The notes under the pieces are model-generated. The model was not told the DNA's origin. It ran no database searches and was given only the letters and a program-made list of their open reading frames with translations. The translations under genes were made by a program, and so were the position numbers. Shown here piece by piece: positions 265-34,759 of a DNA stretch of 64,000 nucleotides (within the stretch, counting starts at the first letter, position 1; each line of letters opens with the position of its first letter). Source of the DNA: Dictyostelium discoideum (lineage: Eukaryota); the NCBI GenBank assembly GCA_000004695.1, contig CM000151.3, positions 2,400,001-2,464,000 of the forward strand, read 5' to 3'.

Positions 265-3200
265 ATGATCAGAAAACGAATACTATTATTAATTCTAATA
301 ATAATAGTAATATTACAAATTTTTAGGGTTGAAGGAAATCCAGCAATTCAAATTTATGATGTTTCTAGTGAAGAATACTCATATAATAAATATCCAACAA
401 ATACAAATGACAAATATTGTAATTTTTTTTTCTTAATATTTGTAACCGATACTTCAGATACTGGAGTTCAATTAAAAATAAAAACCAACGATTCAGACGC
501 AACAATTTCAACACCAGCATTTAAAAATATTTCAAGTCAAGTTCTTCCAATTTATGTAAATACTAAATCACCAAATGATTATTCATTATTAATTACGGCA
601 GAATATGATAATGATACATCAATTTATAGTAGTATTATAATTAATTATTCTTGTCAATGTTTGTATTGATTATTTTTTTAAGAAAAAAAAAAAAAAAAAA
701 AAAAAAAAAAAAAAAAAAAAAAAAAAAAAAAAAAAAAATTTAAATAAATAATTAATTAAATAATTAAATAAATTAAATAGATATTCCACGAGAATCAATG
801 AAAATAAATTTATATCATACTGGTAAATATAAGCATCCAATTTACCCATTTTCAACAATAATGTACATTACAGGATTAAAATACCCATTGGGTCAATTAC
901 AAGTTGACAAACCGTATAATGTAAAAGTTGATAATATAAGGCCATTTGTCTATCATATTGGTGACGAATTTAATGGATTTATTAAACCAGATTTTAATAT
1001 ATCACTATGGTTCATGGATAGTTCAAATAATACTTATTCATTAAATTATACAATTCCAAGTTTAATTTATTCAAGTAAGTAATTATTGTTATTATTATTA
1101 TTGTTTTTATTATTATTATTATTTTAAAAATTAATATATTAAATTATAATTTTAAAAATTCAGATTCAAATGTAAAAGAAAAGGATATTACATTTAAAAT
1201 TTATCCTAATCAAACAAATGTTATAGAATTTGGATTTATTTGTCCACCAATTTATTCTATTACATTAAATGAAACAATTGGATTAAGCGACCCATTGTTT
1301 ATTAATGAAAATATAGGTTTAAATCCATGGGCATCTTATGAAATGCCAGGAAAAGGTACAACATTCCTTGGTCAAGTTTCTTCCGATTATTCAATTGGTG
1401 CTCAAATTAATGGCACCTTAACTACAATTTATTATCAATTTTTAAAGGTCTCATGTAAGTTTATTATTATTATTATTATTTTTTTTTATTATTGTTTATT
1501 TTTATTATTTTAAAAAATCATTTTTGTTAATAATTTTAATAATATTATTATTATTGTTTTTTAAATATATAGATAATATTGATAGAAAATTTCCATCTTT
1601 TCAAATTGATTATTCACCACCATTACCTTCACTTTCATCAATATTTTCAATTAAATTTAATTCAACTAAAAAATTTGATTTATTCAATTATTCAATTAGA
1701 TGGTTTGAAAGTTTTTCAAATAGTTATAAATGGCCTTTTGGTTTCGAAAGTGGTCATAATTCAAATTATTCATTCAAGTCATCATTTCTACAATCTGAAA
1801 TCTCTGTAAATCCCTACAACTCACTTTATTTCAATCAAGATCATTCTTTAACGCAAATTAGTAATCAACAAGGTAATTGTTTTTTTTTATTTTTTATTAT
1901 TATTTAATAAAATTATTATATTAATTAAAATAATTTTATTATAAATAATAGTTGTGGATATAAATACATTACCAATATTAGAATTAGAATCATTTAATTC
2001 TACTCATTTATATAATCAAGTTTATTTATTTAAGATTAAAATAAAACCAATTTATCAAAGTAAAGGGTACAGTACTTTTATTAAAATTAATGATAATGTT
2101 AATCAAGTATTAAGATATGACTCAATGCCTGATATCGAAAACAATATATATGAAACTGTTTTAAATTTTCATGAAGGTATATTAAATAGTTTAAATATTG
2201 GTGATTCTTATTCAAGACAATCTCAATTTTATAATCCATTTCAATATTATTCAATTGATCCACTTTTAAAACTTGATTTTAAATATTCTGATATGATTTC
2301 AGTTTTAATTGGTAATGTAACTTATTTAATAAATAACATTGATGTAACAAATAAATCAGTTGATAATATAATTTATTTCAATTATAATGGTACTCAAGAA
2401 CCTAAAGATGATACAATTAATTTCTCATTTTTAATTTTATCTCATGAGTTTAAAGTAACTGGAGTCGTAGATTATGATAATATTACAACTTCAATTTGGA
2501 ATTCAACAATTTCAAAATATCAAATTAAATTTACAGTTCCTGCAAATACTAGACCTGGTCCACTTGGTTTTGCTTTACTTTGTGGTTATTCAAGTTCATT
2601 AATAAGTGATTTCTTACCTTTATCTTCTCAATTAATTATTGAATCTAAACATTTCGATGAATATGGACCAATATTTAGTAATATTGAAAAAGTTAATTCA
2701 ACAAATGAATTTGGTTGGAAATTTACAATAGATGATCCAATTAATGGTTTTGATTATGCTGATATTATAGTTAGAGGTGAAATGGATAGTTCAACTTATA
2801 AATTCCATTTAACAACTCAAAATTTAACAAGAGGTGATAAATTTAATGGTGATTATCAAATTAATATAACTTTACCAAGTAAATGTGCATCTCAAAATTA
2901 TATTATCACACAAGTTAAATTATATGATACTCAAGGTTATTTAGGTGAATTTTCAGTATCCAGTGGATTTAATGGTATTAGAAATGTATTTATAAATTAT
3001 TTATCAGATCCAACAATAAATAAAGTATATAAAACATGTAGTGGTGAAAATGATGGTATCGATAGTTCACCACCAATTTTAACTTCATTCATACCAATAT
3101 TAAAACAAAATAGTGATGGTACTCAATACTTATCATTCAACTTTGAAGCAGTAGATATTGAAAGTGGTTTAAAAGATAAACAATATCCAATTGTTTATAT

Positions 3201-32900: not shown

Positions 32901-34759
32901 TTAAATCTTAACAAATAATTATCATTAAAGAGATAAAATAATTCAAAATTTAAAAGTTGGACATTAAATGGTTCTTGTGGAGTTACTATTACATTTTCAA
33001 AAAAATATTAAAAATAAATAAATTAGTAAAAATTAAAAAATTAATCATAATGATTTTTTTAATTTTAATATTGTTAAAATTACTCTTTATATCTGATTGT
33101 ACAGTAGTTGAAATGTTTTTATCGGTGGTAAATGAGCTTATGCTATTGATTGAAAATAAATTTTGTAGATGTGATGATTTAAAATTGAAATTAAAATTCT
33201 GACCACTTTCAAACCCAAATGGCCAATTTAAAATTACAGATGATGATGATTGGAAACGATAAACTGTTGGGAAAAAATCAACCTGCTTTAAAATACCACT
33301 ATTGAATGAAATTGTATACATTGATGAATTGTATAACGTTTCATTATTACCATGTAAATAAGTTGCAATAACAACAGTTGAAAAAGATTGTTTTTTTAAT
33401 TCTAAAATTATTAATTAATTAGTTTGTGTGTTTTAATATTAATTTTTTTTTTTTTTTTTTTTTTTAATTTTTCAAAAAATAAACTTACTGGTTACAGTTA
33501 AATTTTCAACTTTATAGATTTCAGTAAGAGAATTATCAGATTGAGAAAATAGAGTATAATATGATGGAGTTACTGCACCATCAAACATACCAATATATGT
33601 TGCCATTTTATTAATTTCATATAAAGGATAGATTTGAATATTACCAGTACCCAAACCGTTTATTAAAGAAACATAAAAATATGGTTGATATTCGTCAGTT
33701 GTTCTATTAATTGTAATAGTAAAAAGAGGTGGACATCCAAACCCAAATTCATTATATTGTGTTACTTGATTTGGATACATAGTTACTATTGAATTATTTG
33801 AATTTACATCAATATCTAAAAAAAAAGTTAATAACTATAATAATAATAATAATAATAATAATAATAATAATAATAATAATAATAATAATAATAATAATAA
33901 TAATAATAATAATAATAATAATAATAATAATAATAATAATAACAATTAAAAATAAATACATACTGGTATAATATAATGAGGGATACTCGATATAGATACT
34001 ATTATTATATATTCCTACAAAATTTACAGAAACTGATAAATTATCTCTAAAGTTATACATCAAAGATCCACCTGCTAGATTTGCAGTATTCTCGATGGTA
34101 TTTGATAAAACCCCACTGGTATTACTTGAATATTCTAATTGTCCAAGAGGGTATTCTGAAGTAAATTGTAAATAACCTCCATAATTTGAAGTTGATCTTT
34201 TAAATCTATTATTAACCATTAACTTATAATCCAATTTAGTGTAATCAATTGCTAAAAAATAAATAAAATTTTTTTTTTTTTTTTTTTATTAGAATCTGTA
34301 AAATAGTAATTTTTTAAAATATAAAAATAAAAATAAAATAAAAAAGAAAAAATAAAAATGATTACCTTGACATATAAAATTAAGGCTAATACTGTTATTA
34401 ATTGAATGATTTAAAGAAAATCTACTAAAAACTTGTACTCCAATGTATCCAGGATCGCCTTGCAATGACATTAAAGAAAGGATACTTGAATTTGAAACAA
34501 GGACATCTAATAAAGTAACAATTGGATCATTGTAAAATAATTCCAAATGGTCATTTCCAATATCCTGTTGACTAACATTGAAAAGTAAATAAACCTCGAA
34601 TTTACATGCATAGGAATTTGTGGATTGTGGATGTTTAATATACGAATTATTATTTGATAAATCATAAATATTAATTATTTGACAATTTGAAAATTTTATA
34701 AAATAATAATTTGAAACAAATATTAAAATTAAAACTTGAATCTTTTCAAATAATTTCAT
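29907..34759 (-). CDS. Divergent paralog 5 of the membrane glycoprotein family, convergent with paralog 4; 6 exons; carries an apparent +1 frameshift (extra A/T in a homopolymer) at ~32098-32104
   Basis: - strand exons ~34759-34366, 34251-33964, 33815-33489, 33401-33084, 32985-32305, 32126-29907. Donors gtaatc/gtatgt/gtaagt/gtaatt; acceptors tttttag/ttttag/taatag/atttag. ORF track: 34289-34759, 33809-34234, 33472-33780, 32989-33321, 32285-32914, 29907-31994. The last exon is 2220 nt, one more than 2+3n. ccaatatTTTTagtaat aligns to ccaatatTTTagtaat in copies 2 and 4. Signal MKLFEKIQVLILIFVSNYYF. TM AGIIIGSVAFAAVVIVSIVYLVV. Confidence 0.55.
32127..32304 (-). other. Copy-5 counterpart of the paralog-specific intron, with an (AAT)n microsatellite (+ strand (att)n 32183-32290)
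   Basis: The - strand reads ...FVTSES | NYDGYGPIFSNIEK. The donor is gaaa|gtaagt, the acceptor is ctatttag|attatgatgg, and the intron sits at the same codon position as in copy 4. Confidence 0.55.
33841..33950 (+). repeat. (AAT)n microsatellite (~36 units) inside intron 2 of copy 5
   Basis: Seen directly. It lies between - strand exon 2 (ends 33964) and exon 3 (starts 33815). Confidence 0.85.

What the first reader, a model, noticed from the sequence alone, without database searches (positions are those of the whole stretch)
265..34759. 35-kb array of five paralogous large type-I membrane glycoprotein genes (possible Tgr/IPT-TIG-like recognition family)
The array has three near-identical direct repeats (ATGs at 265, 8810 and 14215, unit ~5.4 kb including a conserved promoter box) and a divergent convergent pair (20797-25625 + and 34759-29907 -). 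All share one five-exon architecture with phase-1 junctions at equivalent codons. Their shared features are a signal peptide, three ~100-aa N-terminal modules each ending ...S(S)K|, a WPFGFESG motif, a long NxS/T-rich ectodomain, a Thr/Pro linker, one EGF-like module (CLGEP(V/L)CGGSKQG(F/Y)CSSSGC(I/V)CYPPWIGNDC), one TM helix and a 20-30-aa basic tail. In Dictyostelium, tandem and highly variable families of this kind are the ones used for cell-cell adhesion and kin recognition, so this array is a candidate polymorphic recognition locus. I cannot assign the family from memory with confidence.
Basis: partly seen in the sequence, partly recalled or inferred. Interest (0 to 1): 0.8.

Follow-up and report, generated by a model that had tools for sequence, protein, structure and literature searches.

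The report
Tandem ComC-like surface glycoprotein gene array
Five neighbouring Dictyostelium genes encode large single-pass membrane glycoproteins of an annotated but unstudied family; local gene conversion keeps their membrane-proximal halves nearly identical while their outer halves stay very different, and they are not Tgr kin-recognition genes.

Summary
Window 265-34759 (D. discoideum AX4 chromosome 2) carries five paralogous genes of about 1380-1415 codons. My spliced models for g2, g3 and g5 reproduce RefSeq proteins XP_644342.2, XP_644341.1 and XP_644336.1 exactly.

- Only g2 and g3 are near-identical (93% DNA, 91% protein). g1 is about 70% identical to them.
- g4 and g5 have six exons, not five.
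- g4 carries an in-frame TAA at 24849-24851. AX2 has it too; a wild isolate does not.
- The "S(S)K" module ending is the splice donor A|GTAAGT read in frame.

The family is not Tgr: no IPT/TIG hit. The architecture is an unannotated all-beta head of about 660 aa, then DUF7035, DUF7034, (DUF8390), a Thr/Pro linker, DUF7949 (EGF-like), ComC_SSD, a TM helix and a short tail. At least 59 cluster representatives at 50% identity share the head; all those checked are dictyostelid.

The main new result is mosaic concerted evolution. Two tracts, about 270 bp and about 990 bp (EGF+SSD+TM), are 95-100% identical in all five copies, with dS 0.03-0.06 against 0.6-1.05 in the heads. These tracts cluster by genome; the heads cluster by ortholog type.

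Divergence from the wild isolate (omega 0.27-0.42) matches that of two flanking genes, so the locus is not hyperpolymorphic, although copy number differs (5 vs 6). Function is unknown; surface binding or adhesion is an inference.

The parts
265..4860 (+). g1: 5-exon gene, 1395 aa. Exons 265-658, 781-1074, 1164-1454, 1573-1872, 1952-4860.
   Evidence: Splice enumeration gives all phase-1 junctions; translation. It is 95% identical over its full length to the ortholog P0001 of isolate ACTFIW, with the same junctions. The AX2 annotation calls a 1395-aa product here. The exact sequence is not in the protein collection.
8810..13313 (+). g2: 5-exon gene, 1378 aa. Exons 8810-9215, 9289-9585, 9649-9939, 10033-10329, 10468-13313.
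   Evidence: The model is identical to XP_644342.2 / EAL70417.2 / EAL71040.2. Pfam hits: DUF7035, DUF7034, DUF7949, ComC_SSD.
14215..18740 (+). g3: 5-exon gene, 1380 aa. Exons 14215-14620, 14724-15023, 15095-15385, 15491-15787, 15892-18740.
   Evidence: 100% identical over 1380 aa to P0004 = XP_644341.1. Pfam domains: DUF7035 at 664-793, DUF7034 at 804-919, DUF7949 at 1037-1071, ComC_SSD at 1091-1310. TM helix at about 1335-1360.
20797..25625 (+). g4: 6-exon gene, 1415 codons, interrupted by a nonsense codon. Exons 20797-21187, 21266-21544, 21671-21985, 22065-22367, 22525-23247, 23389-25625.
   Evidence: Models. All junctions agree with the intact ortholog P0078 (1393 aa, 90% identity) of isolate ACTFIW.
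24849..24851 (+). In-frame TAA in g4 (codon 1158). It would truncate the product before most of ComC_SSD and the TM helix.
   Evidence: g1, g2, g3 and g5 have CAA at the homologous position. The same TAA is present in the independent AX2-214 assembly. Isolate ACTFIW has Gln here.
29907..34759 (-). g5: 6-exon gene, 1408 aa, convergent with g4. Exons 34759-34366, 34251-33964, 33815-33489, 33401-33084, 32985-32305, 32125-29907.
   Evidence: The model is identical to XP_644336.1 / EAL70411.1 / EAL71088.1.
2675..2945 (+). Homogenised tract A in g1 (first ~90 aa of DUF7035). Homologous tracts: g2 11185-11455, g3 16609-16880, g4 23413-23685, g5 32101-31830 (-).
   Evidence: Minimum pairwise DNA identity is at least 0.96 in 90-bp windows across all five copies. 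Protein identity is 92-98%. dS is 0.03-0.14 against 0.6-1.05 in the N-terminal region. In g4 and g5 the tract starts about 24 bp after the extra intron.
3803..4790 (+). Homogenised tract B in g1 (end of linker, EGF-like DUF7949, ComC_SSD, TM helix).
   Evidence: Minimum pairwise DNA identity is at least 0.90 in 90-bp windows. dS is 0.033-0.061 for all ten pairs. Synonymous differences are 6-11 per ~187 sites here against 164-221 per ~390 sites in the heads; Fisher p is at most 1e-22 for nine of the ten pairs, g2/g3 being the exception.
12256..13245 (+). Homogenised tract B in g2.
17683..18670 (+). Homogenised tract B in g3.
24568..25555 (+). Homogenised tract B in g4. It contains the nonsense codon. 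The cytoplasmic tail downstream of the tract is divergent in g4.
29975..30964 (-). Homogenised tract B in g5, in inverted orientation relative to the other four copies.
8699..8750 (+). Upstream box of g2: AAATATCTT x3 at 14-bp spacing, followed by CAAATCGTAAAAAAA. The g3 equivalent is at 14046-14100. Single copies lie upstream of g1 (124-132, inverted) and g5 (34892-34900 and 35021-35029).
   Evidence: The motif occurs 15 times against 6.0 expected, and no shuffle of 100 reaches 15. Eight of the 15 copies are upstream of family ATGs; sequences. A regulatory role is inferred, not tested.
7163..7450 (+). Non-coding relic of about 290 bp from a g2/g3-type copy (homologous to exon-5 head sequence), lying in the g1-g2 spacer.
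   Evidence: 82% identical to g2 10871-11185, 80% to g3 16298-16609 and 73% to g1 2358-2675. Its translation contains 13 stop codons. The g1'-g2' spacer in isolate ACTFIW is only about 1.2 kb against 3.95 kb in AX4.

Best explanation
SHOWN
- The locus is a birth-and-death array of five paralogs of a dictyostelid family of type-I membrane glycoproteins.
- From the N-terminus each protein has: a signal peptide; an all-beta 'head' of about 660 aa with no Pfam match, its first ~430 aa encoded by four phase-1 exon modules; DUF7035; DUF7034; DUF8390 (precomputed hit for the g1, g2/g3 and g5 types, not g4); a Thr/Pro linker; one EGF-like module (DUF7949); a ComC-type supersandwich domain; one TM helix; and a tail of about 20 aa.
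- The array evolves as a mosaic. Local gene conversion, which also reaches the inverted copy g5, keeps a tract of about 270 bp and the ~990-bp EGF-SSD-TM 'stalk' nearly identical in all copies of one genome.
- The heads persist as four old, very different types (g1, g2/g3, g4, g5; 30-48% identity). These types are orthologous between strains, under purifying or relaxed selection.
- Copies are gained (the g2/g3 duplication; a sixth copy in another isolate) and lost (a nonsense codon in g4 of the AX lineage; a 290-bp relic).

INFERRED
- The products sit in a membrane with the glycosylated beta-sandwich ectodomain facing outward.
- The constant stalk couples to a common partner or anchoring function.
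- The divergent heads bind different ligands, in cell-cell, cell-substrate or prey adhesion or signalling. This is by analogy with ComC, the only studied protein I know that shares the SSD cassette.
- The locus is not a Tgr-type allorecognition locus.
For: - Gene models are validated against RefSeq or independent annotations.
- Pfam: DUF7035 (E 1e-37), DUF7034 (1e-27), DUF7949 (1e-14) and ComC_SSD (61-68 bits against a cut-off of 24). Precomputed DUF8390 appears.
- Mosaic identity profile: heads 17-56% identical between types in 60-column windows; tract A 92-98%; tract B 93-100%.
- dS is 0.03-0.06 in tract B against 0.59-1.05 in the heads.
- In tract B the copies cluster by genome. AX4 copies are 96-98% identical to each other and 92-97% to the ACTFIW copies. 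The two D. citrinum copies are 99% identical to each other but 88-89% to every discoideum copy. In the heads the copies cluster by ortholog type.
- Dispersed AX4 family members share only 50-62% identity with the stalk, so near-identity is confined to this array and is not required by the fold.
- Purifying selection between strains: omega 0.27-0.42.
- Copy-number and pseudogene variation.
- The head profile finds 59 cluster representatives at 50% identity, most of about 1350-1420 aa and colinear with the query. Members in D. discoideum, D. cf. discoideum and D. firmibasis were confirmed by look-up, with a distant partial hit in Synstelium.
Against: - There is no experimental or expression evidence of any kind. 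I found no paper on these genes or their family.
- Both AlphaFold models are low confidence (mean pLDDT 46.6 and 49.5), so the fold assignments are weak.
- The dN/dS values are simple Nei-Gojobori estimates in a 78% A+T genome.
- Strain comparisons rest mainly on one isolate, and g2/g3 orthology is blurred by conversion.
- I did not run a formal gene-conversion test such as GENECONV.
Confidence: 0.6

Rival explanations
1. One reading: a Tgr-like, highly polymorphic kin or allorecognition locus, whose variable ectodomains discriminate self from non-self during aggregation.
For: - It is a tandem array of large type-I glycoproteins with very divergent ectodomains.
- Copy number differs between isolates (5 vs 6), and one copy is inactivated in the lab lineage.
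- The g2/g3 heads show pN/pS of about 1.07 overall and 1.9 in alignment columns 101-200.
- A Dicty_CAD adhesion-domain gene is embedded in the array.
Against: - There is no IPT/TIG domain.
- Orthologous heads are 90-95% identical between AX4 and a diverged isolate. Their dS and omega are no higher than in two flanking genes.
- Between strains the heads are no more variable than the stalk: g1 is 95% identical in the head and 96% in the stalk.
- The head types are shared with cf. discoideum and D. citrinum (g1 type 87% and 75%; g2/g3 type 67-85%), so they are ancient paralogs, not alleles.
- There is no divergently transcribed receptor-ligand pair of the tgrB1/tgrC1 kind (that arrangement is from my own knowledge). 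g4 and g5 are convergent.
Confidence: 0.07
2. Endo-lysosomal or phagosomal membrane glycoproteins: a heavily glycosylated luminal domain protects or partners a transporter or serves vesicle function, as GLMP does for MFSD1. On this view they are not cell-surface adhesion molecules.
For: - The topology is the same: a large N-glycosylated beta ectodomain, a single TM helix and a very short tail.
Against: - The model is low confidence (pLDDT 49.5), and the match has rmsd 6 A and 8% identity.
- No GLMP-family match appeared in the Pfam scans run at E<=1.
- There is no obvious Yxx-phi motif in the tail, by my reading.
- The 1000-aa multi-module ectodomain with a mucin-like linker and an EGF module is more typical of surface proteins.
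Confidence: 0.15
3. The near-identity of the stalk reflects only very strong purifying selection on an essential domain, not gene conversion.
For: Across dispersed family members the stalk is also the best conserved part: 50-62% identity against 25-30% for the heads. omega in tract B is low, 0.14-0.32.
Against: - Synonymous divergence collapses about 15-fold in the tracts: dS 0.03-0.06 against 0.6-1.05, Fisher p at most 1e-22.
- Paralogs within a genome are more alike than orthologs between genomes. For example, the two citrinum copies are 99% identical to each other but 88-89% to the discoideum copies.
- AX4-ACTFIW ortholog dS in the last 340 codons (0.08-0.14) exceeds the within-AX4 paralog dS.
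Confidence: 0.03
4. The array is functionally decaying: redundant copies drifting toward pseudogenes, with no current role.
For: - g4 has a nonsense codon in AX4 and AX2.
- A relic fragment lies at 7163-7450.
- omega is 0.66-1.07 between paralog heads.
- There are no functional data.
Against: - Four of the five copies keep open reading frames of 1378-1408 codons across five or six exons with intact splice sites.
- Orthologs are intact in other isolates and in D. citrinum.
- Between-strain omega of 0.27-0.42 indicates purifying selection.
Confidence: 0.05

Closest known systems
ComC (D. discoideum 'communication mutant C' EGF-domain membrane protein) and ComC_SSD-containing proteins (Pfam PF22933)
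   Same: - Both carry the C-terminal cassette of an EGF-like module, a ComC supersandwich domain, a single TM helix and a short tail. ComC_SSD scores 61-68 bits against a gathering threshold of 24.
- Both have a signal peptide plus a TM helix, and both are restricted to dictyostelids (PMC4931340 Table 3).
   Different: - A ComC-like protein scanned here (P0011) scores 400 bits on ComC_SSD and has IPT/TIG plus multiple teneurin-type EGF repeats.
- The array proteins have neither. Instead they carry a ~660-aa head with no Pfam match, then DUF7035, DUF7034 and DUF8390.
- ComC itself was not retrieved, so the comparison is made through Pfam and P0011.
- ComC's developmental signalling role is recalled from my own knowledge (Kibler et al. 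2003, not read here). It cannot simply be transferred.
TgrB1/TgrC1 and the tgr family (Dictyostelium allorecognition, IPT/TIG proteins)
   Same: Both are large type-I glycoproteins of social amoebae encoded in clustered, duplicating gene families. Both show gene conversion or recombination and copy-number change between isolates (PMC12745789).
   Different: - No IPT/TIG domains are detected.
- There is no excess divergence between isolates relative to flanking genes.
- The heads are stable paralog types rather than hypervariable alleles.
- There is no divergent gene pair; this feature of tgrB1/C1 is from my own knowledge.
Dispersed D. discoideum paralogs of the same family (XP_636932.1, XP_637496.2, DDB_G0278919; 'EGF-like domain-containing protein')
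   Same: Same length (about 1370-1412 aa) and a colinear head-to-tail architecture, with DUF7035, DUF7034, DUF7949 and ComC_SSD.
   Different: They are only 25-30% (head) and 50-62% (stalk) identical to the array copies. They lie on other contigs and are not part of the homogenised set.
Variable-head / constant-stalk surface-protein arrays shaped by partial gene conversion (for example fungal ALS/FLO adhesins; a general evolutionary pattern, cited from my own knowledge)
   Same: Tandem paralogs, a Ser/Thr/Pro-rich length-variable linker, homogenised segments next to divergent ligand-binding regions, and gain and loss of copies.
   Different: There is no sequence or domain relationship. The anchor here is a TM helix rather than a GPI or cell-wall link. 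The analogy concerns the mode of evolution only.

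Membership tests
Tgr (tgrB1/C1-type) family | Multiple IPT/TIG (PF01833) domains in the ectodomain | tested here: not met
Tgr (tgrB1/C1-type) family | Extreme allelic polymorphism between isolates, far above the genomic background | tested here: not met
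   AX4 vs ACTFIW: amino-acid differences 4.0-8.4%, dS 0.065-0.116, omega 0.27-0.42. Flanking genes give 3.1-6.8%, dS 0.046-0.087, omega 0.31-0.38. Only one isolate was compared codon by codon.
Tgr (tgrB1/C1-type) family | Divergently transcribed receptor/ligand gene pair (feature recalled from my own knowledge) | tested here: not met
   g1-g4 are head-to-tail. g4 and g5 are convergent.
ComC_SSD-containing proteins (PF22933) | ComC supersandwich domain above the Pfam gathering score, next to the membrane | tested here: met
   61-68 bits against a cut-off of 24 in g1, g2, g3 and g5, and 43 bits for the part of g4 after its stop codon. In g3 the domain spans residues 1091-1310, just before the TM helix at about 1335-1360.
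ComC proper (orthology to comC) | IPT/TIG plus multiple EGF repeats upstream of a high-scoring ComC_SSD | tested here: not met
   The array proteins have one EGF-like module, no TIG and a weak SSD score. P0011 has TIG, EGF_TEN, EGF_2 and a 400-bit SSD.
DUF7035-DUF7034-DUF7949-ComC_SSD '1380-aa' family | Colinear architecture, including the ~660-aa head with the WPFGFESG motif | tested here: met
   All five copies meet it. The head profile retrieves 59 representatives, 35 of them at E<=1e-10 and most of 1350-1420 aa. The motif is kept as YPYGIGSG in the distant metagenomic member P0010.
EGF-like domain | Six-cysteine EGF pattern, or a Pfam EGF model above threshold | tested here: inconclusive
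   The six-Cys pattern CLGEP(V/L)CGGSKQG.CS.SGC(I/V)CYPPWIGNDC is present in all five copies, and DUF7949 scores 54-58 bits against a cut-off of 27. The classical EGF models are below threshold: EGF_TEN 16-19 bits vs 65, EGF_2 10.6 vs 22.1.
Type-I membrane glycoprotein | Cleavable signal peptide, one C-terminal TM helix, N-glycosylation sequons in the ectodomain | tested here: met
   Hydropathy gives a single strong 19-mer at the C-terminus, plus an N-terminal hydrophobic leader. There are 28-35 sequons per protein. This is sequence prediction only. Glycosylation and topology cannot be tested with these tools.
Ig-like / FN3-like adhesion folds | Confident beta-sandwich domain models matching Ig/FN3/cadherin-type folds | tested here: inconclusive
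   The models are almost entirely beta-strand but have mean pLDDT 46.6 and 49.5. Foldseek hits FN3/Ig strings at E 6e-6 to 1e-3 with TM of 0.25 or below. There is no PDB match by sequence.

The most novel reading that the evidence does not exclude
The array is a second, non-Tgr cell-surface recognition or adhesion repertoire of social amoebae. Array-wide gene conversion deliberately preserves one common EGF-supersandwich-TM 'signalling stalk', and one 90-aa patch of DUF7035. Four or more ancient head types, plus recently duplicated heads evolving at omega of about 1 (g2/g3), provide distinct ligand specificities, for example for different prey, substrata or cell types. On this reading the embedded Dicty_CAD gene belongs to the same adhesion module.
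Probability: 0.15. Interest if true: 0.6.

Novelty: new member of a known kind. Interest (0 to 1): 0.33.

Why it matters
The genes themselves are already annotated ('EGF-like domain-containing protein'), and their C-terminal domains are catalogued in Pfam. The finding is therefore not a new kind of gene.

What this analysis adds:
- It rejects the Tgr kin-recognition label.
- It gives a clear example of segmental concerted evolution in Dictyostelium. The stalk and one internal patch are homogenised across five copies, including an inverted one. The heads stay as old, distinct types.
- It documents copy gain, copy loss and a lab-lineage nonsense allele.

This gives Dictyostelium researchers a defined, deletable locus for testing what the large, unstudied ComC_SSD family does. 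It is also a caution for anyone mapping short reads or designing knock-outs: the 3' kilobase of all five genes is nearly identical, and the accession pairs suggest the locus is duplicated again in AX4.

Tried and rejected
1. A profile search of the word-indexed protein database with the five head sequences (A1) returned nothing.
I rebuilt the alignment as A2 from accepted sequences.
3. AlphaFold2 on the head (A2, 10 sequences) and on the C-terminal 717 aa (A3, 14 sequences) gave mean pLDDT 46.6 and 49.5. I use only the secondary structure and treat the fold matches as weak hints.
4. hhalign between the four N-terminal exon modules and two sub-blocks of exon 5 found no internal repeat relationship (all probabilities below 1%).
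5. Sequence searches of the PDB found nothing significant.
6. Literature searches for comC/lagC, for family member DDB_G0278919, and for gene conversion or concerted evolution in Dictyostelium found no paper on this family.
7. No tRNA genes lie in 1-36000, so there is no sign of tRNA-targeted retroelement involvement.
8. A G/C-rich box shared by the g1 and g4 upstream regions (TTGGCCCAGGCTGTT vs TTGGACCCAGGGTTGTT) could not be shown to exceed chance.
9. A repeat scan of the g1-g2 spacer gave only low-complexity A/T matches.
10. The last word-indexed search, with the stalk as query, returned mostly short ComC_SSD fragments from many dictyostelids but not ComC itself.

Full report
WHAT THE SEQUENCE IS

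The window is 17-30% G+C. My spliced model of the third gene is 100% identical over 1380 aa to XP_644341.1 of D. discoideum AX4, which lies on an 8.48-Mb contig. That size matches AX4 chromosome 2, from my own knowledge. Each exactly matched protein carries two EAL accessions. I infer that the locus lies inside the known AX4 chromosome-2 duplication (mentioned in PMC12745789) and is therefore present twice in AX4.

CHECKING THE OBSERVATION

I enumerated GT..AG introns that join the open frames. This gave five genes.
- g1: 265-4860, + strand, 5 exons, 1395 aa.
- g2: 8810-13313, + strand, 5 exons, 1378 aa.
- g3: 14215-18740, + strand, 5 exons, 1380 aa.
- g4: 20797-25625, + strand, 6 exons, 1415 codons.
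- g5: 34759-29907, - strand, 6 exons, 1408 aa.

All junctions are phase 1. The g2, g3 and g5 models equal RefSeq proteins exactly. The g4 junctions match the intact ortholog P0078. The g1 model matches the ortholog P0001.

Five corrections are needed.
1. Only g2 and g3 are near-identical: 93.3% DNA identity over 4580 bp, 91% aa, spacing 5405 bp. g1 is about 70% identical to them overall and about 48% in the head, and it lies 8545 bp upstream.
2. g4 and g5 have an extra phase-1 intron rich in (ATT)n.
3. g4 has an in-frame TAA at 24849-24851 where all other copies have CAA.
4. 'S(S)K|' is the donor A|GTAAGT read in frame.
5. There are four N-terminal exon modules. They have no detectable mutual sequence similarity.

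A short upstream box is real. AAATATCTT occurs 15 times against 6 expected, and eight copies lie upstream of family ATGs.

WHAT FAMILY IT IS

Pfam places the C-terminal ~720 aa of every copy in DUF7035, DUF7034, DUF7949 (the EGF-like module) and ComC_SSD. Precomputed annotation adds DUF8390. The N-terminal ~660 aa have no Pfam match.

No IPT/TIG hit appears anywhere. A ComC-like protein, P0011, shows TIG, several EGF models and a 400-bit ComC_SSD in the same scan. So these genes are not Tgr genes and not comC orthologs. They share ComC's EGF-SSD-TM cassette.

An exhaustive profile search with the head found 59 representatives at 50% identity. Of these, 35 scored E<=1e-10, and most are 1350-1420 aa and colinear with the query. 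The ones I looked up are D. discoideum paralogs on other contigs (XP_636932.1, XP_637496.2, DDB_G0278919), other isolates, D. firmibasis, and a distant partial hit in Synstelium. All are unnamed or called 'EGF-like domain-containing protein'. Stalk-only fragments occur in D. purpureum, Polysphondylium violaceum and D. dimigraforme.

STRUCTURE

Both models are almost entirely beta-strand, with the TM helix where expected.

THE MAIN RESULT: MOSAIC CONCERTED EVOLUTION

Protein identity along the five-way alignment falls into four zones.
- Head, between types: 17-56% in 60-column windows (30-48% over the whole head).
- A block of about 90 aa at the start of DUF7035: 92-98%.
- The rest of DUF7035, DUF7034 and DUF8390: 33-100%, depending on the pair.
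- From the end of the linker to the end of the TM helix: 93-100%.

At the DNA level there are two tracts in which all ten pairs stay at or above 90-96% identity in 90-bp windows.
- Tract A: g1 2675-2945 and its homologs.
- Tract B: g1 3803-4790, g2 12256-13245, g3 17683-18670, g4 24568-25555, g5 30964-29975.

Synonymous divergence is 0.03-0.06 in tract B against 0.59-1.05 in the heads. Fisher p is at most 1e-22 for every pair except g2/g3.

With orthologs from other genomes, the stalk clusters by genome.
- AX4 copies are 96-98% identical to each other.
- The two D. citrinum copies are 99% identical to each other but 88-89% to every discoideum copy.
- The three cf. discoideum copies are 97-98% identical to each other.

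The heads cluster by type instead: g1 95%, g4 90% and g5 92% between AX4 and ACTFIW, and the g1 type 75% to D. citrinum.

Ortholog dS in the last 340 codons between AX4 and ACTFIW (0.08-0.14) exceeds paralog dS within AX4. Dispersed family members share only 50-62% of the stalk.

Together this indicates local gene conversion, reaching the inverted copy g5, rather than selection alone.

IS IT A POLYMORPHIC RECOGNITION LOCUS?

Isolate ACTFIW (GCA_054859355.1) carries the syntenic array with six copies: an extra g2-like gene and an intact g4. Its spacers are much shorter. PMC12745789 calls two tropical isolates, CR116C and OT3A, D. discoideum; ACTFIW carries that species name and is probably one of them, but I did not map the locus-tag prefix to a strain.

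The g4 nonsense codon is shared by the independent AX2-214 assembly, so it is real and specific to the lab lineage. A 290-bp relic of a g2/g3-type copy lies at 7163-7450. So the array does gain and lose copies.

Allelic divergence, however, is ordinary for this strain pair.
- Family genes: dS 0.065-0.116, omega 0.27-0.42, 4.0-8.4% amino-acid differences.
- Two flanking genes: dS 0.046-0.087, omega 0.31-0.38, 3.1-6.8% amino-acid differences.

Between strains the heads are no more variable than the stalk. The only hint of relaxed or positive selection is between the young paralogs g2 and g3: head omega about 1.07, and 1.9 in alignment columns 101-200, on small counts.

The Tgr-like allorecognition reading is therefore not supported. 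A proper population sample is still lacking.

HOW IT MOST LIKELY WORKS

The gene structures, domain content, mosaic conversion, birth-and-death dynamics and purifying selection are shown.

The rest is inference. I take these to be outward-facing membrane glycoproteins in which a constant, conversion-maintained EGF-SSD-TM stalk provides a shared anchoring or partner-binding function. On this view, four old head types provide different binding specificities, plausibly in adhesion or signalling. ComC is the only studied protein I know with this cassette.

A GLMP-like endolysosomal role is the main functional rival.

No expression, localisation or phenotype data were available.

VERDICT

It is already annotated but uncharacterised, and it was assigned to the wrong family and given an unsupported polymorphism interpretation. 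The mosaic concerted evolution is a modestly interesting addition. Interest is about 0.33.

Noticed in passing
window 19091-~19480 (-), between g3 and g4: A small gene with a Dicty_CAD cell-cell adhesion domain (PF05720, E 3.5e-29; the DdCAD-1 family, by my recollection) is embedded in the array. It is kept at the same position in AX2 (100 aa) and in isolate ACTFIW (106 aa).
   Followed up: partly
window 26312-28084 (between g4 and g5) vs L003 6511-9168: AX4 has broken ORFs here, for example 26555-26977 and 27215-27472 on the - strand. They are homologous (91-92% DNA) to an intact 774-aa gene of isolate ACTFIW. In ACTFIW that gene lies on the other side of g5 and in the opposite orientation, and g4' and g5' are only about 230 bp apart. 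This is a structural rearrangement across g5 whose mechanism I could not explain.
   Followed up: partly
window 5347-6693, both strands (g1-g2 spacer): Short ORFs with an Armadillo-repeat hit (6040-6342, E 6e-7) share the peptide LQLPYLIQN with an ORF on the opposite strand. AX2 annotates a 158-aa 'Arm (faint)' gene here. This is probably a fragmentary importin-alpha-like pseudogene, inserted in AX4 relative to ACTFIW, whose spacer is 1.2 kb against 3.95 kb.
   Followed up: partly
window 23290-23380 (g4 intron 5); 33830-33945 and 32190-32290 (g5 introns 2 and 5): Very long (ATT)n/(AAT)n microsatellites fill these introns. Homogenised tract A begins about 24 bp downstream of the microsatellite-bearing intron 5 in g4 and g5.
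   Followed up: no
window 95-115 and 20664-20680: A G/C-rich box lies about 130-165 bp upstream of the g1 and g4 ATGs: TTGGCCCAGGCTGTT vs TTGGACCCAGGGTTGTT. With only two copies differing by indels, it could not be distinguished from chance.
   Followed up: partly
window 49296-55635 (-): A tandem series of ORFs and fragments has conserved ...PFSIG(P/T/I)R(N/S)CV C-termini. I read these as cytochrome-P450-like heme-binding ends. Several look split or partial.
   Followed up: no
accessions of g2, g3 and g5: Each identical protein has two GenBank EAL accessions (for example EAL70417.2 and EAL71040.2). This suggests the whole array lies in the AX4-specific chromosome-2 duplication, so AX4 would carry ten copies. 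I cannot tell which copy of the duplication the window represents.
   Followed up: partly
proteins P0096-P0113: Many dictyostelid genomes encode short products of 190-550 aa consisting only of the EGF-like/ComC_SSD cassette, for example DDB_G0270998 (266 aa) and DDB_G0281459 (212 aa). These may be gene fragments or an independently duplicating stalk module.
   Followed up: no
window 35520-37553 (+) and 37736-40600 (-): Two flanking genes have no Pfam match on the stretches or products examined (the 954-aa ORF itself was not scanned). They differ from isolate ACTFIW by 6.8% and 3.1% of residues. I used them as the local baseline. If they are themselves fast-evolving, the baseline is generous.
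   Followed up: partly
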